Source of the DNA: Naegleria gruberi | Taxonomy: Eukaryota | Length of the DNA stretch: 37,613 nucleotides | Reading direction: 5' to 3' (one strand) | NCBI GenBank assembly: GCA_000004985.1 | Contig: GG739158.1 | Shown: piece after piece, positions 1 through 36,082 of the stretch | Layout of the letters: each line of letters begins with the position of its first letter | Position numbering within the stretch: position 1 is the first letter of the stretch | Made by a program: the position numbers and the translations under genes | The notes under the pieces: generated by a model | The model's input: the letters and a program-made list of their open reading frames with translations, nothing else | Database searches by the model: none | What the model was told of the DNA's origin: nothing

Positions 1-38
1 GTATTTGGATATCACACATTTAGGTAAGGATTAAATAG

Positions 39-359: not shown

Positions 360-364
360 ATAAT

Positions 365-1081: not shown

Positions 1082-1083
1082 AG

Positions 1084-2194: not shown

Positions 2195-2240
2195 CCCCAT
2201 TGCTTCAGGCCAAAAACAAAGTGAATTATATGTATGTTCT

Positions 2241-2272
2241 ATATTTTACAATAATTTACAATAATTTACAAT
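2241..2272. repeat. Tandem decamer repeat (ATAATTTACA, about 3 copies with 1 mismatch)
   Basis: Read directly as atattttaca ataatttaca ataatttaca at. It lies in an AT-rich non-coding stretch (intron or 3' region) downstream of the PhoPQ-like coding exon on the minus strand. Confidence 0.8.
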
Positions 2273-2295
2273 CCAGTCAATAAGAATTTCATAGT

Positions 2296-3147: not shown

Positions 3148-3178
3148 TTTTTTTTAACAAATCGTCCTTCTAAAAAAA
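3148..3178. promoter_or_regulatory. Extremely short divergent intergenic region between head-to-head genes (T9 tract, then ..ctaaaaaa before the + strand ATG)
   Basis: The minus-strand ATG at 3145-3147 is preceded by A9 on its own strand, and the plus-strand ATG at 3179 is preceded by AAAAAAA. Only 31 nt separate the two start codons (58 nt if the minus gene starts at 3120). Confidence 0.45.
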
Positions 3179-4210: not shown

Positions 4211-7200
4211 NNNNNNNNNNNNNNNNNNNNNNNNNNNNNNNNNNNNNNNNNNNNNNNNNNNNNNNNNNNNNNNNNNNNNNNNNNNNNNNNNNNNNNNNNN
4301 NNNNNNNNNNNNNNNNNNNNNNNNNNNNNNNNNNNNNNNNNNNNNNNNNNNNNNNNNNNNNNNNNNNNNNNNNNNNNNNNNNNNNNNNNNNNNNNNNNNN
4401 NNNNNNNNNNNNNNNNNNNNNNNNNNNNNNNNNNNNNNNNNNNNNNNNNNNNNNNNNNNNNNNNNNNNNNNNNNNNNNNNNNNNNNNNNNNNNNNNNNNN
4501 NNNNNNNNNNNNNNNNNNNNNNNNNNNNNNNNNNNNNNNNNNNNNNNNNNNNNNNNNNNNNNNNNNNNNNNNNNNNNNNNNNNNNNNNNNNNNNNNNNNN
4601 NNNNNNNNNNNNNNNNNNNNNNNNNNNNNNNNNNNNNNNNNNNNNNNNNNNNNNNNNNNNNNNNNNNNNNNNNNNNNNNNNNNNNNNNNNNNNNNNNNNN
4701 NNNNNNNNNNNNNNNNNNNNNNNNNNNNNNNNNNNNNNNNNNNNNNNNNNNNNNNNNNNNNNNNNNNNNNNNNNNNNNNNNNNNNNNNNNNNNNNNNNNN
4801 NNNNNNNNNNNNNNNNNNNNNNNNNNNNNNNNNNNNNNNNNNNNNNNNNNNNNNNNNNNNNNNNNNNNNNNNNNNNNNNNNNNNNNNNNNNNNNNNNNNN
4901 NNNNNNNNNNNNNNNNNNNNNNNNNNNNNNNNNNNNNNNNNNNNNNNNNNNNNNNNNNNNNNNNNNNNNNNNNNNNNNNNNNNNNNNNNNNNNNNNNNNN
5001 NNNNNNNNNNNNNNNNNNNNNNNNNNNNNNNNNNNNNNNNNNNNNNNNNNNNNNNNNNNNNNNNNNNNNNNNNNNNNNNNNNNNNNNNNNNNNNNNNNNN
5101 NNNNNNNNNNNNNNNNNNNNNNNNNNNNNNNNNNNNNNNNNNNNNNNNNNNNNNNNNNNNNNNNNNNNNNNNNNNNNNNNNNNNNNNNNNNNNNNNNNNN
5201 NNNNNNNNNNNNNNNNNNNNNNNNNNNNNNNNNNNNNNNNNNNNNNNNNNNNNNNNNNNNNNNNNNNNNNNNNNNNNNNNNNNNNNNNNNNNNNNNNNNN
5301 NNNNNNNNNNNNNNNNNNNNNNNNNNNNNNNNNNNNNNNNNNNNNNNNNNNNNNNNNNNNNNNNNNNNNNNNNNNNNNNNNNNNNNNNNNNNNNNNNNNN
5401 NNNNNNNNNNNNNNNNNNNNNNNNNNNNNNNNNNNNNNNNNNNNNNNNNNNNNNNNNNNNNNNNNNNNNNNNNNNNNNNNNNNNNNNNNNNNNNNNNNNN
5501 NNNNNNNNNNNNNNNNNNNNNNNNNNNNNNNNNNNNNNNNNNNNNNNNNNNNNNNNNNNNNNNNNNNNNNNNNNNNNNNNNNNNNNNNNNNNNNNNNNNN
5601 NNNNNNNNNNNNNNNNNNNNNNNNNNNNNNNNNNNNNNNNNNNNNNNNNNNNNNNNNNNNNNNNNNNNNNNNNNNNNNNNNNNNNNNNNNNNNNNNNNNN
5701 NNNNNNNNNNNNNNNNNNNNNNNNNNNNNNNNNNNNNNNNNNNNNNNNNNNNNNNNNNNNNNNNNNNNNNNNNNNNNNNNNNNNNNNNNNNNNNNNNNNN
5801 NNNNNNNNNNNNNNNNNNNNNNNNNNNNNNNNNNNNNNNNNNNNNNNNNNNNNNNNNNNNNNNNNNNNNNNNNNNNNNNNNNNNNNNNNNNNNNNNNNNN
5901 NNNNNNNNNNNNNNNNNNNNNNNNNNNNNNNNNNNNNNNNNNNNNNNNNNNNNNNNNNNNNNNNNNNNNNNNNNNNNNNNNNNNNNNNNNNNNNNNNNNN
6001 NNNNNNNNNNNNNNNNNNNNNNNNNNNNNNNNNNNNNNNNNNNNNNNNNNNNNNNNNNNNNNNNNNNNNNNNNNNNNNNNNNNNNNNNNNNNNNNNNNNN
6101 NNNNNNNNNNNNNNNNNNNNNNNNNNNNNNNNNNNNNNNNNNNNNNNNNNNNNNNNNNNNNNNNNNNNNNNNNNNNNNNNNNNNNNNNNNNNNNNNNNNN
6201 NNNNNNNNNNNNNNNNNNNNNNNNNNNNNNNNNNNNNNNNNNNNNNNNNNNNNNNNNNNNNNNNNNNNNNNNNNNNNNNNNNNNNNNNNNNNNNNNNNNN
6301 NNNNNNNNNNNNNNNNNNNNNNNNNNNNNNNNNNNNNNNNNNNNNNNNNNNNNNNNNNNNNNNNNNNNNNNNNNNNNNNNNNNNNNNNNNNNNNNNNNNN
6401 NNNNNNNNNNNNNNNNNNNNNNNNNNNNNNNNNNNNNNNNNNNNNNNNNNNNNNNNNNNNNNNNNNNNNNNNNNNNNNNNNNNNNNNNNNNNNNNNNNNN
6501 NNNNNNNNNNNNNNNNNNNNNNNNNNNNNNNNNNNNNNNNNNNNNNNNNNNNNNNNNNNNNNNNNNNNNNNNNNNNNNNNNNNNNNNNNNNNNNNNNNNN
6601 NNNNNNNNNNNNNNNNNNNNNNNNNNNNNNNNNNNNNNNNNNNNNNNNNNNNNNNNNNNNNNNNNNNNNNNNNNNNNNNNNNNNNNNNNNNNNNNNNNNN
6701 NNNNNNNNNNNNNNNNNNNNNNNNNNNNNNNNNNNNNNNNNNNNNNNNNNNNNNNNNNNNNNNNNNNNNNNNNNNNNNNNNNNNNNNNNNNNNNNNNNNN
6801 NNNNNNNNNNNNNNNNNNNNNNNNNNNNNNNNNNNNNNNNNNNNNNNNNNNNNNNNNNNNNNNNNNNNNNNNNNNNNNNNNNNNNNNNNNNNNNNNNNNN
6901 NNNNNNNNNNNNNNNNNNNNNNNNNNNNNNNNNNNNNNNNNNNNNNNNNNNNNNNNNNNNNNNNNNNNNNNNNNNNNNNNNNNNNNNNNNNNNNNNNNNN
7001 NNNNNNNNNNNNNNNNNNNNNNNNNNNNNNNNNNNNNNNNNNNNNNNNNNNNNNNNNNNNNNNNNNNNNNNNNNNNNNNNNNNNNNNNNNNNNNNNNNNN
7101 NNNNNNNNNNNNNNNNNNNNNNNNNNNNNNNNNNNNNNNNNNNNNNNNNNNNNNNNNNNNNNNNNNNNNNNNNNNNNNNNNNNNNNNNNNNNNNNNNNNN

Positions 7201-10200
7201 NNNNNNNNNNNNNNNNNNNNNNNNNNNNNNNNNNNNNNNNNNNNNNNNNNNNNNNNNNNNNNNNNNNNNNNNNNNNNNNNNNNNNNNNNNNNNNNNNNNN
7301 NNNNNNNNNNNNNNNNNNNNNNNNNNNNNNNNNNNNNNNNNNNNNNNNNNNNNNNNNNNNNNNNNNNNNNNNNNNNNNNNNNNNNNNNNNNNNNNNNNNN
7401 NNNNNNNNNNNNNNNNNNNNNNNNNNNNNNNNNNNNNNNNNNNNNNNNNNNNNNNNNNNNNNNNNNNNNNNNNNNNNNNNNNNNNNNNNNNNNNNNNNNN
7501 NNNNNNNNNNNNNNNNNNNNNNNNNNNNNNNNNNNNNNNNNNNNNNNNNNNNNNNNNNNNNNNNNNNNNNNNNNNNNNNNNNNNNNNNNNNNNNNNNNNN
7601 NNNNNNNNNNNNNNNNNNNNNNNNNNNNNNNNNNNNNNNNNNNNNNNNNNNNNNNNNNNNNNNNNNNNNNNNNNNNNNNNNNNNNNNNNNNNNNNNNNNN
7701 NNNNNNNNNNNNNNNNNNNNNNNNNNNNNNNNNNNNNNNNNNNNNNNNNNNNNNNNNNNNNNNNNNNNNNNNNNNNNNNNNNNNNNNNNNNNNNNNNNNN
7801 NNNNNNNNNNNNNNNNNNNNNNNNNNNNNNNNNNNNNNNNNNNNNNNNNNNNNNNNNNNNNNNNNNNNNNNNNNNNNNNNNNNNNNNNNNNNNNNNNNNN
7901 NNNNNNNNNNNNNNNNNNNNNNNNNNNNNNNNNNNNNNNNNNNNNNNNNNNNNNNNNNNNNNNNNNNNNNNNNNNNNNNNNNNNNNNNNNNNNNNNNNNN
8001 NNNNNNNNNNNNNNNNNNNNNNNNNNNNNNNNNNNNNNNNNNNNNNNNNNNNNNNNNNNNNNNNNNNNNNNNNNNNNNNNNNNNNNNNNNNNNNNNNNNN
8101 NNNNNNNNNNNNNNNNNNNNNNNNNNNNNNNNNNNNNNNNNNNNNNNNNNNNNNNNNNNNNNNNNNNNNNNNNNNNNNNNNNNNNNNNNNNNNNNNNNNN
8201 NNNNNNNNNNNNNNNNNNNNNNNNNNNNNNNNNNNNNNNNNNNNNNNNNNNNNNNNNNNNNNNNNNNNNNNNNNNNNNNNNNNNNNNNNNNNNNNNNNNN
8301 NNNNNNNNNNNNNNNNNNNNNNNNNNNNNNNNNNNNNNNNNNNNNNNNNNNNNNNNNNNNNNNNNNNNNNNNNNNNNNNNNNNNNNNNNNNNNNNNNNNN
8401 NNNNNNNNNNNNNNNNNNNNNNNNNNNNNNNNNNNNNNNNNNNNNNNNNNNNNNNNNNNNNNNNNNNNNNNNNNNNNNNNNNNNNNNNNNNNNNNNNNNN
8501 NNNNNNNNNNNNNNNNNNNNNNNNNNNNNNNNNNNNNNNNNNNNNNNNNNNNNNNNNNNNNNNNNNNNNNNNNNNNNNNNNNNNNNNNNNNNNNNNNNNN
8601 NNNNNNNNNNNNNNNNNNNNNNNNNNNNNNNNNNNNNNNNNNNNNNNNNNNNNNNNNNNNNNNNNNNNNNNNNNNNNNNNNNNNNNNNNNNNNNNNNNNN
8701 NNNNNNNNNNNNNNNNNNNNNNNNNNNNNNNNNNNNNNNNNNNNNNNNNNNNNNNNNNNNNNNNNNNNNNNNNNNNNNNNNNNNNNNNNNNNNNNNNNNN
8801 NNNNNNNNNNNNNNNNNNNNNNNNNNNNNNNNNNNNNNNNNNNNNNNNNNNNNNNNNNNNNNNNNNNNNNNNNNNNNNNNNNNNNNNNNNNNNNNNNNNN
8901 NNNNNNNNNNNNNNNNNNNNNNNNNNNNNNNNNNNNNNNNNNNNNNNNNNNNNNNNNNNNNNNNNNNNNNNNNNNNNNNNNNNNNNNNNNNNNNNNNNNN
9001 NNNNNNNNNNNNNNNNNNNNNNNNNNNNNNNNNNNNNNNNNNNNNNNNNNNNNNNNNNNNNNNNNNNNNNNNNNNNNNNNNNNNNNNNNNNNNNNNNNNN
9101 NNNNNNNNNNNNNNNNNNNNNNNNNNNNNNNNNNNNNNNNNNNNNNNNNNNNNNNNNNNNNNNNNNNNNNNNNNNNNNNNNNNNNNNNNNNNNNNNNNNN
9201 NNNNNNNNNNNNNNNNNNNNNNNNNNNNNNNNNNNNNNNNNNNNNNNNNNNNNNNNNNNNNNNNNNNNNNNNNNNNNNNNNNNNNNNNNNNNNNNNNNNN
9301 NNNNNNNNNNNNNNNNNNNNNNNNNNNNNNNNNNNNNNNNNNNNNNNNNNNNNNNNNNNNNNNNNNNNNNNNNNNNNNNNNNNNNNNNNNNNNNNNNNNN
9401 NNNNNNNNNNNNNNNNNNNNNNNNNNNNNNNNNNNNNNNNNNNNNNNNNNNNNNNNNNNNNNNNNNNNNNNNNNNNNNNNNNNNNNNNNNNNNNNNNNNN
9501 NNNNNNNNNNNNNNNNNNNNNNNNNNNNNNNNNNNNNNNNNNNNNNNNNNNNNNNNNNNNNNNNNNNNNNNNNNNNNNNNNNNNNNNNNNNNNNNNNNNN
9601 NNNNNNNNNNNNNNNNNNNNNNNNNNNNNNNNNNNNNNNNNNNNNNNNNNNNNNNNNNNNNNNNNNNNNNNNNNNNNNNNNNNNNNNNNNNNNNNNNNNN
9701 NNNNNNNNNNNNNNNNNNNNNNNNNNNNNNNNNNNNNNNNNNNNNNNNNNNNNNNNNNNNNNNNNNNNNNNNNNNNNNNNNNNNNNNNNNNNNNNNNNNN
9801 NNNNNNNNNNNNNNNNNNNNNNNNNNNNNNNNNNNNNNNNNNNNNNNNNNNNNNNNNNNNNNNNNNNNNNNNNNNNNNNNNNNNNNNNNNNNNNNNNNNN
9901 NNNNNNNNNNNNNNNNNNNNNNNNNNNNNNNNNNNNNNNNNNNNNNNNNNNNNNNNNNNNNNNNNNNNNNNNNNNNNNNNNNNNNNNNNNNNNNNNNNNN
10001 NNNNNNNNNNNNNNNNNNNNNNNNNNNNNNNNNNNNNNNNNNNNNNNNNNNNNNNNNNNNNNNNNNNNNNNNNNNNNNNNNNNNNNNNNNNNNNNNNNNN
10101 NNNNNNNNNNNNNNNNNNNNNNNNNNNNNNNNNNNNNNNNNNNNNNNNNNNNNNNNNNNNNNNNNNNNNNNNNNNNNNNNNNNNNNNNNNNNNNNNNNNN

Positions 10201-13200
10201 NNNNNNNNNNNNNNNNNNNNNNNNNNNNNNNNNNNNNNNNNNNNNNNNNNNNNNNNNNNNNNNNNNNNNNNNNNNNNNNNNNNNNNNNNNNNNNNNNNNN
10301 NNNNNNNNNNNNNNNNNNNNNNNNNNNNNNNNNNNNNNNNNNNNNNNNNNNNNNNNNNNNNNNNNNNNNNNNNNNNNNNNNNNNNNNNNNNNNNNNNNNN
10401 NNNNNNNNNNNNNNNNNNNNNNNNNNNNNNNNNNNNNNNNNNNNNNNNNNNNNNNNNNNNNNNNNNNNNNNNNNNNNNNNNNNNNNNNNNNNNNNNNNNN
10501 NNNNNNNNNNNNNNNNNNNNNNNNNNNNNNNNNNNNNNNNNNNNNNNNNNNNNNNNNNNNNNNNNNNNNNNNNNNNNNNNNNNNNNNNNNNNNNNNNNNN
10601 NNNNNNNNNNNNNNNNNNNNNNNNNNNNNNNNNNNNNNNNNNNNNNNNNNNNNNNNNNNNNNNNNNNNNNNNNNNNNNNNNNNNNNNNNNNNNNNNNNNN
10701 NNNNNNNNNNNNNNNNNNNNNNNNNNNNNNNNNNNNNNNNNNNNNNNNNNNNNNNNNNNNNNNNNNNNNNNNNNNNNNNNNNNNNNNNNNNNNNNNNNNN
10801 NNNNNNNNNNNNNNNNNNNNNNNNNNNNNNNNNNNNNNNNNNNNNNNNNNNNNNNNNNNNNNNNNNNNNNNNNNNNNNNNNNNNNNNNNNNNNNNNNNNN
10901 NNNNNNNNNNNNNNNNNNNNNNNNNNNNNNNNNNNNNNNNNNNNNNNNNNNNNNNNNNNNNNNNNNNNNNNNNNNNNNNNNNNNNNNNNNNNNNNNNNNN
11001 NNNNNNNNNNNNNNNNNNNNNNNNNNNNNNNNNNNNNNNNNNNNNNNNNNNNNNNNNNNNNNNNNNNNNNNNNNNNNNNNNNNNNNNNNNNNNNNNNNNN
11101 NNNNNNNNNNNNNNNNNNNNNNNNNNNNNNNNNNNNNNNNNNNNNNNNNNNNNNNNNNNNNNNNNNNNNNNNNNNNNNNNNNNNNNNNNNNNNNNNNNNN
11201 NNNNNNNNNNNNNNNNNNNNNNNNNNNNNNNNNNNNNNNNNNNNNNNNNNNNNNNNNNNNNNNNNNNNNNNNNNNNNNNNNNNNNNNNNNNNNNNNNNNN
11301 NNNNNNNNNNNNNNNNNNNNNNNNNNNNNNNNNNNNNNNNNNNNNNNNNNNNNNNNNNNNNNNNNNNNNNNNNNNNNNNNNNNNNNNNNNNNNNNNNNNN
11401 NNNNNNNNNNNNNNNNNNNNNNNNNNNNNNNNNNNNNNNNNNNNNNNNNNNNNNNNNNNNNNNNNNNNNNNNNNNNNNNNNNNNNNNNNNNNNNNNNNNN
11501 NNNNNNNNNNNNNNNNNNNNNNNNNNNNNNNNNNNNNNNNNNNNNNNNNNNNNNNNNNNNNNNNNNNNNNNNNNNNNNNNNNNNNNNNNNNNNNNNNNNN
11601 NNNNNNNNNNNNNNNNNNNNNNNNNNNNNNNNNNNNNNNNNNNNNNNNNNNNNNNNNNNNNNNNNNNNNNNNNNNNNNNNNNNNNNNNNNNNNNNNNNNN
11701 NNNNNNNNNNNNNNNNNNNNNNNNNNNNNNNNNNNNNNNNNNNNNNNNNNNNNNNNNNNNNNNNNNNNNNNNNNNNNNNNNNNNNNNNNNNNNNNNNNNN
11801 NNNNNNNNNNNNNNNNNNNNNNNNNNNNNNNNNNNNNNNNNNNNNNNNNNNNNNNNNNNNNNNNNNNNNNNNNNNNNNNNNNNNNNNNNNNNNNNNNNNN
11901 NNNNNNNNNNNNNNNNNNNNNNNNNNNNNNNNNNNNNNNNNNNNNNNNNNNNNNNNNNNNNNNNNNNNNNNNNNNNNNNNNNNNNNNNNNNNNNNNNNNN
12001 NNNNNNNNNNNNNNNNNNNNNNNNNNNNNNNNNNNNNNNNNNNNNNNNNNNNNNNNNNNNNNNNNNNNNNNNNNNNNNNNNNNNNNNNNNNNNNNNNNNN
12101 NNNNNNNNNNNNNNNNNNNNNNNNNNNNNNNNNNNNNNNNNNNNNNNNNNNNNNNNNNNNNNNNNNNNNNNNNNNNNNNNNNNNNNNNNNNNNNNNNNNN
12201 NNNNNNNNNNNNNNNNNNNNNNNNNNNNNNNNNNNNNNNNNNNNNNNNNNNNNNNNNNNNNNNNNNNNNNNNNNNNNNNNNNNNNNNNNNNNNNNNNNNN
12301 NNNNNNNNNNNNNNNNNNNNNNNNNNNNNNNNNNNNNNNNNNNNNNNNNNNNNNNNNNNNNNNNNNNNNNNNNNNNNNNNNNNNNNNNNNNNNNNNNNNN
12401 NNNNNNNNNNNNNNNNNNNNNNNNNNNNNNNNNNNNNNNNNNNNNNNNNNNNNNNNNNNNNNNNNNNNNNNNNNNNNNNNNNNNNNNNNNNNNNNNNNNN
12501 NNNNNNNNNNNNNNNNNNNNNNNNNNNNNNNNNNNNNNNNNNNNNNNNNNNNNNNNNNNNNNNNNNNNNNNNNNNNNNNNNNNNNNNNNNNNNNNNNNNN
12601 NNNNNNNNNNNNNNNNNNNNNNNNNNNNNNNNNNNNNNNNNNNNNNNNNNNNNNNNNNNNNNNNNNNNNNNNNNNNNNNNNNNNNNNNNNNNNNNNNNNN
12701 NNNNNNNNNNNNNNNNNNNNNNNNNNNNNNNNNNNNNNNNNNNNNNNNNNNNNNNNNNNNNNNNNNNNNNNNNNNNNNNNNNNNNNNNNNNNNNNNNNNN
12801 NNNNNNNNNNNNNNNNNNNNNNNNNNNNNNNNNNNNNNNNNNNNNNNNNNNNNNNNNNNNNNNNNNNNNNNNNNNNNNNNNNNNNNNNNNNNNNNNNNNN
12901 NNNNNNNNNNNNNNNNNNNNNNNNNNNNNNNNNNNNNNNNNNNNNNNNNNNNNNNNNNNNNNNNNNNNNNNNNNNNNNNNNNNNNNNNNNNNNNNNNNNN
13001 NNNNNNNNNNNNNNNNNNNNNNNNNNNNNNNNNNNNNNNNNNNNNNNNNNNNNNNNNNNNNNNNNNNNNNNNNNNNNNNNNNNNNNNNNNNNNNNNNNNN
13101 NNNNNNNNNNNNNNNNNNNNNNNNNNNNNNNNNNNNNNNNNNNNNNNNNNNNNNNNNNNNNNNNNNNNNNNNNNNNNNNNNNNNNNNNNNNNNNNNNNNN

Positions 13201-25200: not shown

Positions 25201-28200
25201 NNNNNNNNNNNNNNNNNNNNNNNNNNNNNNNNNNNNNNNNNNNNNNNNNNNNNNNNNNNNNNNNNNNNNNNNNNNNNNNNNNNNNNNNNNNNNNNNNNNN
25301 NNNNNNNNNNNNNNNNNNNNNNNNNNNNNNNNNNNNNNNNNNNNNNNNNNNNNNNNNNNNNNNNNNNNNNNNNNNNNNNNNNNNNNNNNNNNNNNNNNNN
25401 NNNNNNNNNNNNNNNNNNNNNNNNNNNNNNNNNNNNNNNNNNNNNNNNNNNNNNNNNNNNNNNNNNNNNNNNNNNNNNNNNNNNNNNNNNNNNNNNNNNN
25501 NNNNNNNNNNNNNNNNNNNNNNNNNNNNNNNNNNNNNNNNNNNNNNNNNNNNNNNNNNNNNNNNNNNNNNNNNNNNNNNNNNNNNNNNNNNNNNNNNNNN
25601 NNNNNNNNNNNNNNNNNNNNNNNNNNNNNNNNNNNNNNNNNNNNNNNNNNNNNNNNNNNNNNNNNNNNNNNNNNNNNNNNNNNNNNNNNNNNNNNNNNNN
25701 NNNNNNNNNNNNNNNNNNNNNNNNNNNNNNNNNNNNNNNNNNNNNNNNNNNNNNNNNNNNNNNNNNNNNNNNNNNNNNNNNNNNNNNNNNNNNNNNNNNN
25801 NNNNNNNNNNNNNNNNNNNNNNNNNNNNNNNNNNNNNNNNNNNNNNNNNNNNNNNNNNNNNNNNNNNNNNNNNNNNNNNNNNNNNNNNNNNNNNNNNNNN
25901 NNNNNNNNNNNNNNNNNNNNNNNNNNNNNNNNNNNNNNNNNNNNNNNNNNNNNNNNNNNNNNNNNNNNNNNNNNNNNNNNNNNNNNNNNNNNNNNNNNNN
26001 NNNNNNNNNNNNNNNNNNNNNNNNNNNNNNNNNNNNNNNNNNNNNNNNNNNNNNNNNNNNNNNNNNNNNNNNNNNNNNNNNNNNNNNNNNNNNNNNNNNN
26101 NNNNNNNNNNNNNNNNNNNNNNNNNNNNNNNNNNNNNNNNNNNNNNNNNNNNNNNNNNNNNNNNNNNNNNNNNNNNNNNNNNNNNNNNNNNNNNNNNNNN
26201 NNNNNNNNNNNNNNNNNNNNNNNNNNNNNNNNNNNNNNNNNNNNNNNNNNNNNNNNNNNNNNNNNNNNNNNNNNNNNNNNNNNNNNNNNNNNNNNNNNNN
26301 NNNNNNNNNNNNNNNNNNNNNNNNNNNNNNNNNNNNNNNNNNNNNNNNNNNNNNNNNNNNNNNNNNNNNNNNNNNNNNNNNNNNNNNNNNNNNNNNNNNN
26401 NNNNNNNNNNNNNNNNNNNNNNNNNNNNNNNNNNNNNNNNNNNNNNNNNNNNNNNNNNNNNNNNNNNNNNNNNNNNNNNNNNNNNNNNNNNNNNNNNNNN
26501 NNNNNNNNNNNNNNNNNNNNNNNNNNNNNNNNNNNNNNNNNNNNNNNNNNNNNNNNNNNNNNNNNNNNNNNNNNNNNNNNNNNNNNNNNNNNNNNNNNNN
26601 NNNNNNNNNNNNNNNNNNNNNNNNNNNNNNNNNNNNNNNNNNNNNNNNNNNNNNNNNNNNNNNNNNNNNNNNNNNNNNNNNNNNNNNNNNNNNNNNNNNN
26701 NNNNNNNNNNNNNNNNNNNNNNNNNNNNNNNNNNNNNNNNNNNNNNNNNNNNNNNNNNNNNNNNNNNNNNNNNNNNNNNNNNNNNNNNNNNNNNNNNNNN
26801 NNNNNNNNNNNNNNNNNNNNNNNNNNNNNNNNNNNNNNNNNNNNNNNNNNNNNNNNNNNNNNNNNNNNNNNNNNNNNNNNNNNNNNNNNNNNNNNNNNNN
26901 NNNNNNNNNNNNNNNNNNNNNNNNNNNNNNNNNNNNNNNNNNNNNNNNNNNNNNNNNNNNNNNNNNNNNNNNNNNNNNNNNNNNNNNNNNNNNNNNNNNN
27001 NNNNNNNNNNNNNNNNNNNNNNNNNNNNNNNNNNNNNNNNNNNNNNNNNNNNNNNNNNNNNNNNNNNNNNNNNNNNNNNNNNNNNNNNNNNNNNNNNNNN
27101 NNNNNNNNNNNNNNNNNNNNNNNNNNNNNNNNNNNNNNNNNNNNNNNNNNNNNNNNNNNNNNNNNNNNNNNNNNNNNNNNNNNNNNNNNNNNNNNNNNNN
27201 NNNNNNNNNNNNNNNNNNNNNNNNNNNNNNNNNNNNNNNNNNNNNNNNNNNNNNNNNNNNNNNNNNNNNNNNNNNNNNNNNNNNNNNNNNNNNNNNNNNN
27301 NNNNNNNNNNNNNNNNNNNNNNNNNNNNNNNNNNNNNNNNNNNNNNNNNNNNNNNNNNNNNNNNNNNNNNNNNNNNNNNNNNNNNNNNNNNNNNNNNNNN
27401 NNNNNNNNNNNNNNNNNNNNNNNNNNNNNNNNNNNNNNNNNNNNNNNNNNNNNNNNNNNNNNNNNNNNNNNNNNNNNNNNNNNNNNNNNNNNNNNNNNNN
27501 NNNNNNNNNNNNNNNNNNNNNNNNNNNNNNNNNNNNNNNNNNNNNNNNNNNNNNNNNNNNNNNNNNNNNNNNNNNNNNNNNNNNNNNNNNNNNNNNNNNN
27601 NNNNNNNNNNNNNNNNNNNNNNNNNNNNNNNNNNNNNNNNNNNNNNNNNNNNNNNNNNNNNNNNNNNNNNNNNNNNNNNNNNNNNNNNNNNNNNNNNNNN
27701 NNNNNNNNNNNNNNNNNNNNNNNNNNNNNNNNNNNNNNNNNNNNNNNNNNNNNNNNNNNNNNNNNNNNNNNNNNNNNNNNNNNNNNNNNNNNNNNNNNNN
27801 NNNNNNNNNNNNNNNNNNNNNNNNNNNNNNNNNNNNNNNNNNNNNNNNNNNNNNNNNNNNNNNNNNNNNNNNNNNNNNNNNNNNNNNNNNNNNNNNNNNN
27901 NNNNNNNNNNNNNNNNNNNNNNNNNNNNNNNNNNNNNNNNNNNNNNNNNNNNNNNNNNNNNNNNNNNNNNNNNNNNNNNNNNNNNNNNNNNNNNNNNNNN
28001 NNNNNNNNNNNNNNNNNNNNNNNNNNNNNNNNNNNNNNNNNNNNNNNNNNNNNNNNNNNNNNNNNNNNNNNNNNNNNNNNNNNNNNNNNNNNNNNNNNNN
28101 NNNNNNNNNNNNNNNNNNNNNNNNNNNNNNNNNNNNNNNNNNNNNNNNNNNNNNNNNNNNNNNNNNNNNNNNNNNNNNNNNNNNNNNNNNNNNNNNNNNN

Positions 28201-31200
28201 NNNNNNNNNNNNNNNNNNNNNNNNNNNNNNNNNNNNNNNNNNNNNNNNNNNNNNNNNNNNNNNNNNNNNNNNNNNNNNNNNNNNNNNNNNNNNNNNNNNN
28301 NNNNNNNNNNNNNNNNNNNNNNNNNNNNNNNNNNNNNNNNNNNNNNNNNNNNNNNNNNNNNNNNNNNNNNNNNNNNNNNNNNNNNNNNNNNNNNNNNNNN
28401 NNNNNNNNNNNNNNNNNNNNNNNNNNNNNNNNNNNNNNNNNNNNNNNNNNNNNNNNNNNNNNNNNNNNNNNNNNNNNNNNNNNNNNNNNNNNNNNNNNNN
28501 NNNNNNNNNNNNNNNNNNNNNNNNNNNNNNNNNNNNNNNNNNNNNNNNNNNNNNNNNNNNNNNNNNNNNNNNNNNNNNNNNNNNNNNNNNNNNNNNNNNN
28601 NNNNNNNNNNNNNNNNNNNNNNNNNNNNNNNNNNNNNNNNNNNNNNNNNNNNNNNNNNNNNNNNNNNNNNNNNNNNNNNNNNNNNNNNNNNNNNNNNNNN
28701 NNNNNNNNNNNNNNNNNNNNNNNNNNNNNNNNNNNNNNNNNNNNNNNNNNNNNNNNNNNNNNNNNNNNNNNNNNNNNNNNNNNNNNNNNNNNNNNNNNNN
28801 NNNNNNNNNNNNNNNNNNNNNNNNNNNNNNNNNNNNNNNNNNNNNNNNNNNNNNNNNNNNNNNNNNNNNNNNNNNNNNNNNNNNNNNNNNNNNNNNNNNN
28901 NNNNNNNNNNNNNNNNNNNNNNNNNNNNNNNNNNNNNNNNNNNNNNNNNNNNNNNNNNNNNNNNNNNNNNNNNNNNNNNNNNNNNNNNNNNNNNNNNNNN
29001 NNNNNNNNNNNNNNNNNNNNNNNNNNNNNNNNNNNNNNNNNNNNNNNNNNNNNNNNNNNNNNNNNNNNNNNNNNNNNNNNNNNNNNNNNNNNNNNNNNNN
29101 NNNNNNNNNNNNNNNNNNNNNNNNNNNNNNNNNNNNNNNNNNNNNNNNNNNNNNNNNNNNNNNNNNNNNNNNNNNNNNNNNNNNNNNNNNNNNNNNNNNN
29201 NNNNNNNNNNNNNNNNNNNNNNNNNNNNNNNNNNNNNNNNNNNNNNNNNNNNNNNNNNNNNNNNNNNNNNNNNNNNNNNNNNNNNNNNNNNNNNNNNNNN
29301 NNNNNNNNNNNNNNNNNNNNNNNNNNNNNNNNNNNNNNNNNNNNNNNNNNNNNNNNNNNNNNNNNNNNNNNNNNNNNNNNNNNNNNNNNNNNNNNNNNNN
29401 NNNNNNNNNNNNNNNNNNNNNNNNNNNNNNNNNNNNNNNNNNNNNNNNNNNNNNNNNNNNNNNNNNNNNNNNNNNNNNNNNNNNNNNNNNNNNNNNNNNN
29501 NNNNNNNNNNNNNNNNNNNNNNNNNNNNNNNNNNNNNNNNNNNNNNNNNNNNNNNNNNNNNNNNNNNNNNNNNNNNNNNNNNNNNNNNNNNNNNNNNNNN
29601 NNNNNNNNNNNNNNNNNNNNNNNNNNNNNNNNNNNNNNNNNNNNNNNNNNNNNNNNNNNNNNNNNNNNNNNNNNNNNNNNNNNNNNNNNNNNNNNNNNNN
29701 NNNNNNNNNNNNNNNNNNNNNNNNNNNNNNNNNNNNNNNNNNNNNNNNNNNNNNNNNNNNNNNNNNNNNNNNNNNNNNNNNNNNNNNNNNNNNNNNNNNN
29801 NNNNNNNNNNNNNNNNNNNNNNNNNNNNNNNNNNNNNNNNNNNNNNNNNNNNNNNNNNNNNNNNNNNNNNNNNNNNNNNNNNNNNNNNNNNNNNNNNNNN
29901 NNNNNNNNNNNNNNNNNNNNNNNNNNNNNNNNNNNNNNNNNNNNNNNNNNNNNNNNNNNNNNNNNNNNNNNNNNNNNNNNNNNNNNNNNNNNNNNNNNNN
30001 NNNNNNNNNNNNNNNNNNNNNNNNNNNNNNNNNNNNNNNNNNNNNNNNNNNNNNNNNNNNNNNNNNNNNNNNNNNNNNNNNNNNNNNNNNNNNNNNNNNN
30101 NNNNNNNNNNNNNNNNNNNNNNNNNNNNNNNNNNNNNNNNNNNNNNNNNNNNNNNNNNNNNNNNNNNNNNNNNNNNNNNNNNNNNNNNNNNNNNNNNNNN
30201 NNNNNNNNNNNNNNNNNNNNNNNNNNNNNNNNNNNNNNNNNNNNNNNNNNNNNNNNNNNNNNNNNNNNNNNNNNNNNNNNNNNNNNNNNNNNNNNNNNNN
30301 NNNNNNNNNNNNNNNNNNNNNNNNNNNNNNNNNNNNNNNNNNNNNNNNNNNNNNNNNNNNNNNNNNNNNNNNNNNNNNNNNNNNNNNNNNNNNNNNNNNN
30401 NNNNNNNNNNNNNNNNNNNNNNNNNNNNNNNNNNNNNNNNNNNNNNNNNNNNNNNNNNNNNNNNNNNNNNNNNNNNNNNNNNNNNNNNNNNNNNNNNNNN
30501 NNNNNNNNNNNNNNNNNNNNNNNNNNNNNNNNNNNNNNNNNNNNNNNNNNNNNNNNNNNNNNNNNNNNNNNNNNNNNNNNNNNNNNNNNNNNNNNNNNNN
30601 NNNNNNNNNNNNNNNNNNNNNNNNNNNNNNNNNNNNNNNNNNNNNNNNNNNNNNNNNNNNNNNNNNNNNNNNNNNNNNNNNNNNNNNNNNNNNNNNNNNN
30701 NNNNNNNNNNNNNNNNNNNNNNNNNNNNNNNNNNNNNNNNNNNNNNNNNNNNNNNNNNNNNNNNNNNNNNNNNNNNNNNNNNNNNNNNNNNNNNNNNNNN
30801 NNNNNNNNNNNNNNNNNNNNNNNNNNNNNNNNNNNNNNNNNNNNNNNNNNNNNNNNNNNNNNNNNNNNNNNNNNNNNNNNNNNNNNNNNNNNNNNNNNNN
30901 NNNNNNNNNNNNNNNNNNNNNNNNNNNNNNNNNNNNNNNNNNNNNNNNNNNNNNNNNNNNNNNNNNNNNNNNNNNNNNNNNNNNNNNNNNNNNNNNNNNN
31001 NNNNNNNNNNNNNNNNNNNNNNNNNNNNNNNNNNNNNNNNNNNNNNNNNNNNNNNNNNNNNNNNNNNNNNNNNNNNNNNNNNNNNNNNNNNNNNNNNNNN
31101 NNNNNNNNNNNNNNNNNNNNNNNNNNNNNNNNNNNNNNNNNNNNNNNNNNNNNNNNNNNNNNNNNNNNNNNNNNNNNNNNNNNNNNNNNNNNNNNNNNNN

Positions 31201-34200
31201 NNNNNNNNNNNNNNNNNNNNNNNNNNNNNNNNNNNNNNNNNNNNNNNNNNNNNNNNNNNNNNNNNNNNNNNNNNNNNNNNNNNNNNNNNNNNNNNNNNNN
31301 NNNNNNNNNNNNNNNNNNNNNNNNNNNNNNNNNNNNNNNNNNNNNNNNNNNNNNNNNNNNNNNNNNNNNNNNNNNNNNNNNNNNNNNNNNNNNNNNNNNN
31401 NNNNNNNNNNNNNNNNNNNNNNNNNNNNNNNNNNNNNNNNNNNNNNNNNNNNNNNNNNNNNNNNNNNNNNNNNNNNNNNNNNNNNNNNNNNNNNNNNNNN
31501 NNNNNNNNNNNNNNNNNNNNNNNNNNNNNNNNNNNNNNNNNNNNNNNNNNNNNNNNNNNNNNNNNNNNNNNNNNNNNNNNNNNNNNNNNNNNNNNNNNNN
31601 NNNNNNNNNNNNNNNNNNNNNNNNNNNNNNNNNNNNNNNNNNNNNNNNNNNNNNNNNNNNNNNNNNNNNNNNNNNNNNNNNNNNNNNNNNNNNNNNNNNN
31701 NNNNNNNNNNNNNNNNNNNNNNNNNNNNNNNNNNNNNNNNNNNNNNNNNNNNNNNNNNNNNNNNNNNNNNNNNNNNNNNNNNNNNNNNNNNNNNNNNNNN
31801 NNNNNNNNNNNNNNNNNNNNNNNNNNNNNNNNNNNNNNNNNNNNNNNNNNNNNNNNNNNNNNNNNNNNNNNNNNNNNNNNNNNNNNNNNNNNNNNNNNNN
31901 NNNNNNNNNNNNNNNNNNNNNNNNNNNNNNNNNNNNNNNNNNNNNNNNNNNNNNNNNNNNNNNNNNNNNNNNNNNNNNNNNNNNNNNNNNNNNNNNNNNN
32001 NNNNNNNNNNNNNNNNNNNNNNNNNNNNNNNNNNNNNNNNNNNNNNNNNNNNNNNNNNNNNNNNNNNNNNNNNNNNNNNNNNNNNNNNNNNNNNNNNNNN
32101 NNNNNNNNNNNNNNNNNNNNNNNNNNNNNNNNNNNNNNNNNNNNNNNNNNNNNNNNNNNNNNNNNNNNNNNNNNNNNNNNNNNNNNNNNNNNNNNNNNNN
32201 NNNNNNNNNNNNNNNNNNNNNNNNNNNNNNNNNNNNNNNNNNNNNNNNNNNNNNNNNNNNNNNNNNNNNNNNNNNNNNNNNNNNNNNNNNNNNNNNNNNN
32301 NNNNNNNNNNNNNNNNNNNNNNNNNNNNNNNNNNNNNNNNNNNNNNNNNNNNNNNNNNNNNNNNNNNNNNNNNNNNNNNNNNNNNNNNNNNNNNNNNNNN
32401 NNNNNNNNNNNNNNNNNNNNNNNNNNNNNNNNNNNNNNNNNNNNNNNNNNNNNNNNNNNNNNNNNNNNNNNNNNNNNNNNNNNNNNNNNNNNNNNNNNNN
32501 NNNNNNNNNNNNNNNNNNNNNNNNNNNNNNNNNNNNNNNNNNNNNNNNNNNNNNNNNNNNNNNNNNNNNNNNNNNNNNNNNNNNNNNNNNNNNNNNNNNN
32601 NNNNNNNNNNNNNNNNNNNNNNNNNNNNNNNNNNNNNNNNNNNNNNNNNNNNNNNNNNNNNNNNNNNNNNNNNNNNNNNNNNNNNNNNNNNNNNNNNNNN
32701 NNNNNNNNNNNNNNNNNNNNNNNNNNNNNNNNNNNNNNNNNNNNNNNNNNNNNNNNNNNNNNNNNNNNNNNNNNNNNNNNNNNNNNNNNNNNNNNNNNNN
32801 NNNNNNNNNNNNNNNNNNNNNNNNNNNNNNNNNNNNNNNNNNNNNNNNNNNNNNNNNNNNNNNNNNNNNNNNNNNNNNNNNNNNNNNNNNNNNNNNNNNN
32901 NNNNNNNNNNNNNNNNNNNNNNNNNNNNNNNNNNNNNNNNNNNNNNNNNNNNNNNNNNNNNNNNNNNNNNNNNNNNNNNNNNNNNNNNNNNNNNNNNNNN
33001 NNNNNNNNNNNNNNNNNNNNNNNNNNNNNNNNNNNNNNNNNNNNNNNNNNNNNNNNNNNNNNNNNNNNNNNNNNNNNNNNNNNNNNNNNNNNNNNNNNNN
33101 NNNNNNNNNNNNNNNNNNNNNNNNNNNNNNNNNNNNNNNNNNNNNNNNNNNNNNNNNNNNNNNNNNNNNNNNNNNNNNNNNNNNNNNNNNNNNNNNNNNN
33201 NNNNNNNNNNNNNNNNNNNNNNNNNNNNNNNNNNNNNNNNNNNNNNNNNNNNNNNNNNNNNNNNNNNNNNNNNNNNNNNNNNNNNNNNNNNNNNNNNNNN
33301 NNNNNNNNNNNNNNNNNNNNNNNNNNNNNNNNNNNNNNNNNNNNNNNNNNNNNNNNNNNNNNNNNNNNNNNNNNNNNNNNNNNNNNNNNNNNNNNNNNNN
33401 NNNNNNNNNNNNNNNNNNNNNNNNNNNNNNNNNNNNNNNNNNNNNNNNNNNNNNNNNNNNNNNNNNNNNNNNNNNNNNNNNNNNNNNNNNNNNNNNNNNN
33501 NNNNNNNNNNNNNNNNNNNNNNNNNNNNNNNNNNNNNNNNNNNNNNNNNNNNNNNNNNNNNNNNNNNNNNNNNNNNNNNNNNNNNNNNNNNNNNNNNNNN
33601 NNNNNNNNNNNNNNNNNNNNNNNNNNNNNNNNNNNNNNNNNNNNNNNNNNNNNNNNNNNNNNNNNNNNNNNNNNNNNNNNNNNNNNNNNNNNNNNNNNNN
33701 NNNNNNNNNNNNNNNNNNNNNNNNNNNNNNNNNNNNNNNNNNNNNNNNNNNNNNNNNNNNNNNNNNNNNNNNNNNNNNNNNNNNNNNNNNNNNNNNNNNN
33801 NNNNNNNNNNNNNNNNNNNNNNNNNNNNNNNNNNNNNNNNNNNNNNNNNNNNNNNNNNNNNNNNNNNNNNNNNNNNNNNNNNNNNNNNNNNNNNNNNNNN
33901 NNNNNNNNNNNNNNNNNNNNNNNNNNNNNNNNNNNNNNNNNNNNNNNNNNNNNNNNNNNNNNNNNNNNNNNNNNNNNNNNNNNNNNNNNNNNNNNNNNNN
34001 NNNNNNNNNNNNNNNNNNNNNNNNNNNNNNNNNNNNNNNNNNNNNNNNNNNNNNNNNNNNNNNNNNNNNNNNNNNNNNNNNNNNNNNNNNNNNNNNNNNN
34101 NNNNNNNNNNNNNNNNNNNNNNNNNNNNNNNNNNNNNNNNNNNNNNNNNNNNNNNNNNNNNNNNNNNNNNNNNNNNNNNNNNNNNNNNNNNNNNNNNNNN

Positions 34201-36082
34201 NNNNNNNNNNNNNNNNNNNNNNNNNNNNNNNNNNNNNNNNNNNNNNNNNNNNNNNNNNNNNNNNNNNNNNNNNNNNNNNNNNNNNNNNNNNNNNNNNNNN
34301 NNNNNNNNNNNNNNNNNNNNNNNNNNNNNNNNNNNNNNNNNNNNNNNNNNNNNNNNNNNNNNNNNNNNNNNNNNNNNNNNNNNNNNNNNNNNNNNNNNNN
34401 NNNNNNNNNNNNNNNNNNNNNNNNNNNNNNNNNNNNNNNNNNNNNNNNNNNNNNNNNNNNNNNNNNNNNNNNNNNNNNNNNNNNNNNNNNNNNNNNNNNN
34501 NNNNNNNNNNNNNNNNNNNNNNNNNNNNNNNNNNNNNNNNNNNNNNNNNNNNNNNNNNNNNNNNNNNNNNNNNNNNNNNNNNNNNNNNNNNNNNNNNNNN
34601 NNNNNNNNNNNNNNNNNNNNNNNNNNNNNNNNNNNNNNNNNNNNNNNNNNNNNNNNNNNNNNNNNNNNNNNNNNNNNNNNNNNNNNNNNNNNNNNNNNNN
34701 NNNNNNNNNNNNNNNNNNNNNNNNNNNNNNNNNNNNNNNNNNNNNNNNNNNNNNNNNNNNNNNNNNNNNNNNNNNNNNNNNNNNNNNNNNNNNNNNNNNN
34801 NNNNNNNNNNNNNNNNNNNNNNNNNNNNNNNNNNNNNNNNNNNNNNNNNNNNNNNNNNNNNNNNNNNNNNNNNNNNNNNNNNNNNNNNNNNNNNNNNNNN
34901 NNNNNNNNNNNNNNNNNNNNNNNNNNNNNNNNNNNNNNNNNNNNNNNNNNNNNNNNNNNNNNNNNNNNNNNNNNNNNNNNNNNNNNNNNNNNNNNNNNNN
35001 NNNNNNNNNNNNNNNNNNNNNNNNNNNNNNNNNNNNNNNNNNNNNNNNNNNNNNNNNNNNNNNNNNNNNNNNNNNNNNNNNNNNNNNNNNNNNNNNNNNN
35101 NNNNNNNNNNNNNNNNNNNNNNNNNNNNNNNNNNNNNNNNNNNNNNNNNNNNNNNNNNNNNNNNNNNNNNNNNNNNNNNNNNNNNNNNNNNNNNNNNNNN
35201 NNNNNNNNNNNNNNNNNNNNNNNNNNNNNNNNNNNNNNNNNNNNNNNNNNNNNNNNNNNNNNNNNNNNNNNNNNNNNNNNNNNNNNNNNNNNNNNNNNNN
35301 NNNNNNNNNNNNNNNNNNNNNNNNNNNNNNNNNNNNNNNNNNNNNNNNNNNNNNNNNNNNNNNNNNNNNNNNNNNNNNNNNNNNNNNNNNNNNNNNNNNN
35401 NNNNNNNNNNNNNNNNNNNNNNNNNNNNNNNNNNNNNNNNNNNNNNNNNNNNNNNNNNNNNNNNNNNNNNNNNNNNNNNNNNNNNNNNNNNNNNNNNNNN
35501 NNNNNNNNNNNNNNNNNNNNNNNNNNNNNNNNNNNNNNNNNNNNNNNNNNNNNNNNNNNNNNNNNNNNNNNNNNNNNNNNNNNNNNNNNNNNNNNNNNNN
35601 NNNNNNNNNNNNNNNNNNNNNNNNNNNNNNNNNNNNNNNNNNNNNNNNNNNNNNNNNNNNNNNNNNNNNNNNNNNNNNNNNNNNNNNNNNNNNNNNNNNN
35701 NNNNNNNNNNNNNNNNNNNNNNNNNNNNNNNNNNNNNNNNNNNNNNNNNNNNNNNNNNNNNNNNNNNNNNNNNNNNNNNNNNNNNNNNNNNNNNNNNNNN
35801 NNNNNNNNNNNNNNNNNNNNNNNNNNNNNNNNNNNNNNNNNNNNNNNNNNNNNNNNNNNNNNNNNNNNNNNNNNNNNNNNNNNNNNNNNNNNNNNNNNNN
35901 NNNNNNNNNNNNNNNNNNNNNNNNNNNNNNNNNNNNNNNNNNNNNNNNNNNNNNNNNNNNNNNNNNNNNNNNNNNNNNNNNNNNNNNNNNNNNNNNNNNN
36001 NNNNNNNNNNNNNNNNNNNNNNNNNNNNNNNNNNNNNNNNNNNNNNNNNNNNNNNNNNNNNNNNNNNNNNNNNNNNNNNNNN
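4211..36082. other. Unresolved/masked sequence (31,872 N), 85% of the window
   Basis: A run of n characters. Gene D enters it from the left on the plus strand, and the Arp gene enters it from the right on the minus strand. Confidence 1.

What the first reader, a model, noticed from the sequence alone, without database searches (positions are those of the whole stretch)
4211..36082. 31.9 kb of the window is unreadable, and both flanking genes are truncated by it
85% of the window is N. The run length (31,872) is not a round number, which suggests hard-masked real sequence rather than a fixed-size scaffolding gap. Gene D (+, from 3179) and the Arp gene (-, from 36894) both read straight into it, so at least their distal exons lie inside. 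Repeat clusters and transposon arrays are the usual cause of long unresolved blocks in dictyostelid assemblies. If the window does hold an undescribed system, this is where it most likely sits, and it cannot be evaluated from this input.
Basis: seen in the sequence. Interest (0 to 1): 0.5.

Follow-up and report, generated by a model that had tools for sequence, protein, structure and literature searches.

The report
Assembly gap in a Naegleria scaffold
The 31.9 kb of N is an ordinary unsequenced gap, sized from clone-end pairs, in a small leftover scaffold of the 2010 Naegleria gruberi draft genome; it is not hidden or masked sequence, so there is nothing biological to evaluate in it.

Summary
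Positions 4211-36082 are one unbroken run of 31,872 N, and open reading frames run into it from both sides.

- **Source:** the window is a complete 37,613-bp scaffold of the Sanger-era Naegleria gruberi NEG-M assembly, not a dictyostelid. It has three short contigs (1,083, 2,016 and 1,531 bp) joined by two N runs.
- **Gaps are native:** GenBank gene models on this scaffold are cut exactly at the smaller N run (1084-2194).
- **N counts are estimates:** that run has 1,111 N. It must hold at least 1,557 nt of coding sequence, and a 99%-identical metagenome contig has 1,740 nt there. So the N count is a size estimate, not a base-for-base mask.
- **Redundancy:** the left two contigs nearly duplicate two adjacent genes (NAEGRDRAFT_64151 and 64152) on a 695-kb scaffold, so this is probably a haplotig.
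- **Gene D:** it belongs to a small Naegleria-only family. One paralog model continues into RNase H and CCHC retroelement parts. The left contig therefore probably ends inside a non-LTR retrotransposon, which explains the break.
- **The 'Arp' gene:** it has no actin or Arp signal and no detectable homolog.

Verdict: assembly artefact, low interest.

The parts
4211..36082 (.). Scaffold gap 2: 31,872 N joining contig 2 to contig 3. The length is an estimate from clone-end pairs, not sequence.
   Evidence: One search gives the run coordinates. By analogy with gap 1 on the same scaffold, the N count is an estimate. N. gruberi has 1,977 contigs in 784 scaffolds (PMC6125883 Table 1).
1084..2194 (.). 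Scaffold gap 1: 1,111 N. The real content is the rest of PhoPQ exon 2, an intergenic spacer and the N-terminal 304 codons of the NUDIX-DUF924 gene, about 1.7 kb in all.
   Evidence: L001 has 1,740 nt between the flanks; at least 1,557 nt of coding sequence is required; model P0129 starts at the gap edge.
3178..4210 (+). Gene D, 5' part (344 codons, open into gap 2). It is a member of a Naegleria-only multi-copy family and is probably the ORF1-like 5' ORF of a non-LTR retrotransposon.
   Evidence: only 3 hits among 1.84 billion representatives; all three are Naegleria proteins; 52% identity to P0126 over residues 1-334. P0126 carries RNase H, a GGLG motif and a CCHC motif; residues 170-320 are predicted at pLDDT 80-93 as two beta-alpha-beta-beta-alpha-beta modules.
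36083..36894 (-). Gene E, 5' part (270 codons, open into gap 2). It is an unannotated ORFan; the 'Arp' label is not supported.
   Evidence: open frame. (no Pfam family). (no PDB relative). (no homolog). (no related locus). (AF2 pLDDT 36.7).
2195..3147 (-). PhoPQ-related (PF10142) gene NAEGRDRAFT_76795. Exon 1 is 2336-3147, a 96-nt GT-AG intron is 2240-2335, and exon 2 is 2195-2239 and is cut by gap 1 after 15 codons.
   Evidence: Pfam E=1.4e-56. (P0001 100% identical, its only contig is 37,613 bp). (exon 2 reads EHTYNSLCFWPEAMG, as in twin P0121).
365..1083 (-). 3' part (238 codons plus stop) of the NUDIX-DUF924 gene NAEGRDRAFT_76794, cut by gap 1.
   Evidence: DUF924 E=2.8e-54. (P0129 equals residues 305-542 of P0128 at 100% identity).
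37222..37613 (+). Gene F: start of a small Cys-rich protein with a signal-anchor-like N-terminus. It runs off the scaffold end. It is only a neighbour of the gap.
   Evidence: translation. (no Pfam family). Its homolog search was invalid.

Best explanation
The N run is not a biological feature. It is a gap that the assembler inserted between two short contigs of a minor three-contig scaffold of the Sanger whole-genome-shotgun assembly of Naegleria gruberi NEG-M.

**Shown**
- The window is that whole scaffold.
- The gaps were already there when the scaffold was annotated.
- The number of N in the testable gap is an estimate that differs from the true length.
- The two left contigs are a near-identical second copy of two adjacent genes on a 695,587-bp scaffold.

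**Inferred**
- The scaffold is a haplotig. Reads of one haplotype could not be merged into the main scaffold where that haplotype differs.
- The difference is probably a retrotransposon copy (gene D is its 5' ORF) lying 30 nt from the PhoPQ start codon. Contig 2 stops inside that repeat.
- Large-insert (fosmid-size) clone-end pairs then tied contig 2 to contig 3. The assembler wrote insert size minus covered bases, 31,872, as N. The whole scaffold (37.6 kb) is about one fosmid insert long.
- The real DNA of the interval should begin with about 150-200 more codons of gene D and probably a reverse-transcriptase ORF, and should end with the 3' part of gene E. What lies between is unknown. It may largely be represented, as the other haplotype, in the main assembly.
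For: **Source identity**
- P0001 (EFC35551.1, NAEGRDRAFT_76795) is 100% identical to window 2299-3147(-), and its only contig is 37,613 bp, the window length.
- P0129 (EFC35550.1, NAEGRDRAFT_76794, 238 aa) is also on a 37,613-bp contig.

**The gap is native**
- P0129 starts at the first Met after the gap edge and equals residues 305-542 of the 542-aa twin P0128.
- P0001 (283 aa) ends in intron read-through because exon 2 is cut after 15 codons. The twin P0121 has 500 aa.

**The N count is an estimate**
- Gap 1 has 1,111 N but needs 645 + 912 = 1,557 nt of coding sequence.
- It corresponds to 1,740 nt in the 99%-identical contig L001.

**Redundant copy**
- P0121 and P0128 are NAEGRDRAFT_64151 and 64152, consecutive loci on one 695,587-bp scaffold.

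**Gaps are routine in this assembly**
- It has 1,977 contigs in 784 scaffolds and 5.1% repeats (PMC6125883 Table 1) and was Sanger sequenced (PMC9928731 Table 1).

**Repeat at the gap edge**
- Gene D has paralogs on at least 3 other N. gruberi scaffolds and in N. lovaniensis.
- Paralog model P0126 has RNase H (PF00075, 31.5 bits against a cutoff of 25.8), GGLG at residue 569 and C-x2-C-x7-H-x4-C at 835-851.
Against: - The deposited record or its AGP file could not be fetched. N. gruberi is not in the gene-position index. Nativeness of gap 2 itself is therefore inferred from gap 1, not seen directly.
- The length mismatch of gap 1 is measured against a twin copy and a metagenome contig, not against this haplotype. 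A 450-630-nt deletion here could formally reconcile the numbers, but it would destroy one of the two genes.
- The fosmid origin of the 31.9-kb estimate and the use of the Jazz assembler rest on my own knowledge of JGI Sanger projects. The genome paper is not held.
- The retrotransposon reading of gene D rests on one probably chimeric paralog model. The fold search gave no significant match, and no reverse-transcriptase Pfam domain was found in P0126.
- Gene E has no twin in the annotated proteome, so contig 3 is not demonstrably part of a haplotig.
Confidence: 0.88

Rival explanations
1. Hard mask: real, known sequence of exactly 31,872 bases was replaced by N, either by a repeat masker or by whoever prepared the window. 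An analysable locus would then be hidden there.
For: The length is not round.
Against: - The companion N run on the same scaffold cannot be base-for-base: 1,111 N against at least 1,557 nt required, and 1,740 nt in L001.
- The 2010 GenBank gene models stop at its edges.
- Repeat maskers produce patchy masks bounded by repeat copies, not one 32-kb block that starts mid-ORF and ends mid-ORF of an ORFan with no repeats (inference).
- No protein model of gene E exists anywhere, as expected if its 3' part was never assembled.
- Non-round N runs are the normal output of assemblers that estimate gap sizes from mate pairs (PMC1185649).
Confidence: 0.05
2. Mis-scaffolding: the gap does not correspond to any contiguous 32-kb stretch. 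Contig 2 ends in a dispersed retrotransposon copy, so the mate-pair links to contig 3 could come from another copy of the element or from a chimeric clone. Genes D and E would then not be neighbours at all.
For: - Contig 2's last kilobase is a multi-copy family.
- The scaffold is 88% gap, built from three contigs of 1-2 kb, so few reads support it.
- Contigs 1-2 have a twin on the 695-kb scaffold, but contig 3's gene E has no twin in the proteome.
Against: - Mates anchored in the unique part of contig 2 (PhoPQ gene, 2195-3147) would give a valid link.
- Gene D is only 52-58% identical to its known paralogs at protein level, so read misplacement between copies is unlikely unless closer copies exist.
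- No data here speak directly to the links.
Confidence: 0.07

Closest known systems
[quoted passage not shown]
   Same: It is an uninterrupted N run between short contigs. The length is non-round and differs from the true length where that could be tested. Gene models are truncated at the edges. The assembly is known to hold 1,977 contigs in 784 scaffolds.
   Different: Nothing differs in kind. It is unusual only in proportion: 88% of the scaffold is gap, because the scaffold is little more than the two ends of a large-insert clone.
Haplotigs (redundant alternate-haplotype contigs) in assemblies of heterozygous genomes
   Same: Two adjacent genes are duplicated at about 100% protein identity (a single 1-aa indel) and in the same order as NAEGRDRAFT_64151 and 64152 on a 695-kb scaffold. 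N. gruberi is reported as heterozygous (PMC9928731).
   Different: A recent segmental duplication cannot be excluded without the DNA of the large scaffold. Contig 3 has no detected twin.
Non-LTR (LINE-like) retrotransposon, 5' ORF1 (for gene D at the left gap edge)
   Same: - It is a lineage-restricted multi-copy family.
- It has a long N-terminal helix followed by two ferredoxin-like (RRM-like) modules.
- A paralog model continues into a GGLG motif, an RNase H domain and a C-terminal CCHC motif, as LINE ORF2 tails do.
   Different: No reverse-transcriptase or endonuclease domain was detected (the PDB R2 reverse-transcriptase hit has E=0.65). There is no significant structural match to L1 ORF1p. 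The element's ends and target-site duplication are not visible, and ORF2 would lie in the gap.

Membership tests
Assembler-inserted sized scaffold gap | Unbroken run of N between contigs, with no interspersed bases or soft masking | tested here: met
   a single run at 4211-36082, with only A, C, G, T and N in the window and no lower case.
Assembler-inserted sized scaffold gap | The gap is already present in the deposited assembly, so annotation stops at it | tested here: met
   For gap 1, P0129 (238 aa) starts at the gap edge and P0001 (283 aa) lacks exon 2, while the twins have 542 and 500 aa. For gap 2 the evidence is only indirect: no model of gene E exists.
Assembler-inserted sized scaffold gap | The N count is an estimate and need not equal the true length | tested here: met
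   Gap 1 has 1,111 N against 1,740 nt in L001 and at least 1,557 nt of required coding sequence. This is not testable for gap 2.
Assembler-inserted sized scaffold gap | Mate-pair linkage evidence of matching insert size in the AGP file or trace data | not testable with these tools
The 37.6-kb scaffold length is about one fosmid insert (my own knowledge).
Hard-masked (base-for-base) sequence | The masked length equals the real length | tested here: not met
   Gap 1 on the same scaffold is 446-629 nt too short. Gap 2 is not directly testable.
   Proteins are 100% identical to Naegleria gruberi (Heterolobosea). The next best hit is N. fowleri at 58%.
Actin / actin-related protein (Arp), Pfam PF00022, for gene E | Significant match to the actin family profile or to a solved actin-fold protein | tested here: not met
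   No Actin or HSP70 hit at E<=10. The PDB phmmer search at E<=10 gave one unrelated sigma-factor hit. AF2 was uninformative, with pLDDT 36.7. Only a loose motif resemblance (VVVIDQGSSFSKG) remains.
Non-LTR retrotransposon ORF1, for gene D | Multi-copy, lineage-restricted family | tested here: met
   paralogs on N. gruberi scaffolds of 5,345, 182,562 and 502,116 bp, and one in N. lovaniensis. Nothing was found outside Naegleria among 1.84 billion representatives.
Non-LTR retrotransposon ORF1, for gene D | Followed by an ORF2 with endonuclease and reverse transcriptase | tested here: inconclusive
   In the window ORF2 would lie in the gap. Paralog model P0126 has RNase H (31.5 bits), GGLG and CCHC motifs, but no RVT Pfam hit. 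The R2 reverse-transcriptase hit has E=0.65.
Non-LTR retrotransposon ORF1, for gene D | Coiled coil plus RRM-type nucleic-acid-binding fold | tested here: inconclusive
   The AF2 model (5-sequence alignment) has a helix at 10-54 and two beta-alpha-beta-beta-alpha-beta modules at pLDDT 80-93. Foldseek against PDB gave no hit at E<=1e-3. The top hits are tandem ACT and RRM folds.
PhoPQ_related (PF10142) and DUF924 (PF06041), for the left-hand genes | Score above the Pfam gathering threshold | tested here: met
   192.3 bits (cutoff 20.3) and 184.4 bits (cutoff 27).

The most novel reading that the evidence does not exclude
The roughly 30 kb that was never assembled could be a haplotype-specific insertion, such as a cluster of retrotransposons or an integrated mobile or viral element. 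It would be bounded on one side by the retroelement-like gene D and on the other by the ORFan gene E, which has no relative among 5.8 billion protein clusters. This would explain why this haplotype could not be merged with the 695-kb scaffold. Nothing in the readable 4.6 kb tests this.
Probability: 0.1. Interest if true: 0.3.

Novelty: not a real feature. Interest (0 to 1): 0.05.

Why it matters
It matters mainly as a negative result. This window should not be carried forward as a candidate hiding an undescribed system, because 88% of it is an assembler placeholder.

Three practical points follow:
1. Non-round N runs in Sanger-era JGI scaffolds are size estimates. The one that could be tested here was off by about 36%.
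2. Two GenBank N. gruberi proteins, EFC35550.1 and EFC35551.1, are gap-truncated duplicates of NAEGRDRAFT_64152 and 64151 and inflate gene counts.
3. A long-read assembly of N. gruberi would settle the content of the interval at once.

Tried and rejected
**Attempts to recover the missing sequence**
- Exact look-ups of P0001 and P0121 in the gene-position index found nothing. N. gruberi is not indexed.
- Scans of JGI metagenome contigs for relatives of gene D and gene E found nothing.
- Scans of viral contigs for D and E found nothing.
- Only gap 1 could be bridged, through metagenome contig L001.
- L002 is a 54%-identical PhoPQ locus from the same metagenome. It has no gene-D-like ORF in the 908 nt upstream of the gene and does not bear on the gap.

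**Homolog searches**
- Gene E gave no hit.
This was probably caused by its N-rich and I-rich words. It returned nothing and missed paralogs that the exhaustive search later found. One search is therefore void, and gene F and the 101-aa ORF remain unsearched.
- For the same reason I cannot say that no model of gene D's own allele exists. The exhaustive library lists only one representative per 50%-identity cluster.

**Structure**
- Single-sequence AF2 of gene E was useless (pLDDT 36.7).
- The AF2 model of gene D was good only for residues 170-320. Its Foldseek search against PDB was non-specific.

**RNA**
- There are no Rfam families or tRNAs in the readable parts.

**Overlap check**
- The three contigs share no significant similarity with each other, so the gaps are not collapsed overlaps.

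**Literature**
- The N. gruberi genome paper (Cell 2010) is not held.
- Searches for '784 scaffolds' and for Naegleria non-LTR elements gave nothing directly usable.

**Rejected readings**
- Dictyostelid origin, Arp identity and a hard mask, for the reasons given above.
Full report
**1. The observation**

The window has 37,613 bases, of which 32,983 are N. They lie in two runs: 1084-2194 (1,111 N) and 4211-36082 (31,872 N). The small run was not mentioned. The readable DNA is three blocks of 1,083, 2,016 and 1,531 bases at 32.5% GC, all upper case.

- The + strand ORF from ATG 3178 (not 3179) is open for 344 codons up to the N run.
- The - strand ORF from ATG 36894 is open for 270 codons down to it.
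- With a stop-codon frequency of 0.074, such frames have chance probabilities near 3e-12 and 9e-10.

Both are therefore real coding regions cut by the run.

**2. Where the window comes from**

The ORF at 2299-3147(-) is a PhoPQ_related protein (PF10142, E=1.4e-56), and 368-1081(-) is a DUF924 domain (E=2.8e-54).

- A database search with the PhoPQ exon returned P0001. It is 100% identical, 283 aa, 'predicted protein [Naegleria gruberi]' (EFC35551.1, NAEGRDRAFT_76795), and its only contig is 37,613 bp long.
- The DUF924 fragment is P0129 (EFC35550.1, NAEGRDRAFT_76794, 238 aa), also on a 37,613-bp contig.

The window is therefore one complete scaffold of the N. gruberi NEG-M assembly. It is not a dictyostelid. 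That assembly was made from Sanger reads (PMC9928731 Table 1). It consists of 1,977 contigs in 784 scaffolds, with 40.9 Mb, 35% GC and 5.1% repeats (PMC6125883 Table 1). It thus holds about 1,200 intra-scaffold gaps, and this scaffold has two of them.

**3. Are the N runs native gaps or masks?**

Gap 1 can be tested. Both genes next to it have full-length twins in the same proteome:

- P0121 (NAEGRDRAFT_64151, 500 aa)
- P0128 (NAEGRDRAFT_64152, 542 aa)

These are consecutive loci on one 695,587-bp scaffold.

The window's PhoPQ gene has exon 1 (2336-3147), a 96-nt GT-AG intron (2240-2335) and exon 2. Exon 2 reads EHTYNSLCFWPEAMG, exactly as in P0121, and then hits the N run after 15 codons. The deposited model P0001 instead reads through the intron to a stop (…GMFFFLFIELVVY). 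That is what a gene caller does when exon 2 is missing.

P0129 equals residues 305-542 of P0128 at 100% identity and starts at the first Met after the gap edge. So the gap was in the assembly when it was annotated.

The N count is also not the real length.

- The missing parts of the two genes alone need 645 + 912 = 1,557 nt.
- An ENA metagenome contig, L001 (3,721 bp), is 98.7-99.0% identical to the flanks and has 1,740 nt where the window has 1,111 N.

The run is an estimate that is about 630 nt too short.

For gap 2 the same conclusion is by analogy. It is supported by the absence of any protein model of gene E in a collection that contains the N. gruberi proteome. I could not fetch the record itself.

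**4. Why the gap is there (inference)**

The left two contigs duplicate NAEGRDRAFT_64151 and 64152 almost perfectly. There is one 1-aa indel in 270 aa of PhoPQ and 238/238 identical residues in DUF924. The scaffold is most simply a haplotig of a heterozygous genome. Heterozygosity of N. gruberi is noted in PMC9928731, and polymorphism is known to split contigs in Jazz and Celera assemblies (PMC1185649).

Gene D starts only 30 nt from the PhoPQ start codon, on the other strand. An exhaustive HMMER search of 1.84 billion representatives found just three relatives, all from Naegleria:

| Protein | Length | Location |
|---|---|---|
| P0123 | 173 aa | N. gruberi, 5,345-bp scaffold |
| P0124 | 387 aa | N. 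gruberi, 182-kb scaffold |
| P0125 | 306 aa | N. lovaniensis |

P0123 shares its 90% cluster with P0126 (938 aa, 502-kb scaffold).

P0126 is 52% identical to gene D over residues 1-334. It then continues into a GGLG motif (residue 569), an RNase H domain (PF00075, 31.5 bits, cutoff 25.8) and a C-x2-C-x7-H-x4-C motif (835-851). From general knowledge of LINE ORF2 proteins, this is the layout of an ORF2 tail.

An AF2 model of gene D built on a 5-sequence alignment shows a long N-terminal helix and two ferredoxin-like modules at pLDDT 80-93. Foldseek found only non-significant tandem ACT and RRM folds.

I therefore read gene D as the ORF1-like 5' ORF of a Naegleria non-LTR retrotransposon, with a confidence of about 0.6. 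On this reading contig 2 stops inside a dispersed repeat. The alignment with P0124 and P0125 suggests that about 150-200 more codons of this ORF lie in the gap.

The 37.6-kb total length matches one fosmid insert. The 31,872 figure is then the insert-size estimate minus the covered ends (own knowledge of JGI libraries, not testable here).

**5. The right flank**

Gene E has no detectable identity.

- It has no Pfam family, even at E<=10.
- The PDB search at E<=10 gave only one unrelated chain, a sigma factor.
- It has no homolog among 5.8 billion clusters.
- No related locus was found in metagenome or viral contigs.
- The structure model is useless.

The 'Arp' label rests only on a loose motif (VVVIDQGSSFSKG) and is unsupported. 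Gene E is an unannotated ORFan. Because it has no twin, contig 3 is not demonstrably part of the haplotig. A mis-join through the repeat at the end of contig 2 remains possible; I put it at about 0.07.

**6. Comparison with what is known, novelty and verdict**

The feature is a sized scaffold gap in a draft assembly, inside a probable haplotig, next to a probable retroelement. All three are ordinary.

The only open point is what the unsequenced ~30 kb holds in the organism. A haplotype-specific insertion of mobile DNA is possible (about 0.1) but cannot be addressed from 4.6 kb of flanks.

Interest is 0.05. Classification: not a real feature.

Noticed in passing
window 1084-2194: A second N run of 1,111 bases, not mentioned in the finding, also truncates two genes: PhoPQ exon 2 and the N-terminal 304 codons of the NUDIX-DUF924 gene. 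Its true length in a 99%-identical contig is 1,740 nt.
   Followed up: yes
window 2195-3147 (-) and 365-1083 (-): GenBank proteins EFC35551.1 (283 aa) and EFC35550.1 (238 aa) are gap-truncated duplicates of NAEGRDRAFT_64151 (500 aa) and 64152 (542 aa). The last 12 residues of EFC35551.1 (MFFFLFIELVVY) are read-through of a 96-nt GT-AG intron (2240-2335).
   Followed up: yes
L001 1-3721 (ENA ERZ929261, run ERR1078381, project PRJEB11402): A metagenome contig is 98.7-99.0% identical to the left end of the window. It carries the complete 544-aa NUDIX-DUF924 gene, so an N. gruberi-like amoeba was present in that sample. It differs from the window by an indel of about 79 nt between the convergent gene ends near window 359-374.
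   Followed up: partly
window 36083-36894 (-): Gene E is a 270-codon open frame with an acidic N-terminus. It has no annotated model and no detectable relative in any library searched, so it is a Naegleria ORFan cut by the gap.
   Followed up: partly
window 37222-37613 (+): Gene F is an unannotated small Cys-rich protein with a hydrophobic N-terminal segment and a second hydrophobic stretch at the scaffold end. It has no Pfam family. Its only homolog search was void because of the candidate cap.
   Followed up: no
window 3147-3178: The start codons of the PhoPQ gene (-) and gene D (+) are head to head, only 30 nt apart. Similarity to the paralog P0126 already begins 2-3 codons upstream of gene D's ATG (SKKMPQHD against MKKIPQQD). 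The repeat's 5' end must therefore lie within about 20 nt of the PhoPQ start.
   Followed up: partly
P0126 (EFC45516.1, NAEGRDRAFT_66315; not in the window): This 938-aa N. gruberi gene model looks like a chimera. It splices a gene-D-like ORF1 (residues 1-330) onto the tail of a retroelement ORF2 (GGLG motif, RNase H, CCHC) and skips the endonuclease and most of the reverse transcriptase.
   Followed up: partly
window 1-359 (+): The 101-aa ORF at 54-359 is identical to an ORF in L001, where a 174-aa hydrophobic ORF lies just upstream. The two are probably exons of one membrane-protein gene that runs off the left end of the scaffold. It has only a weak DUF92 hit (E=0.028).
   Followed up: no
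window 2245-2275: There is a short tandem repeat (about three copies of 'tgtaaattat' on the - strand) inside the PhoPQ intron.
   Followed up: no
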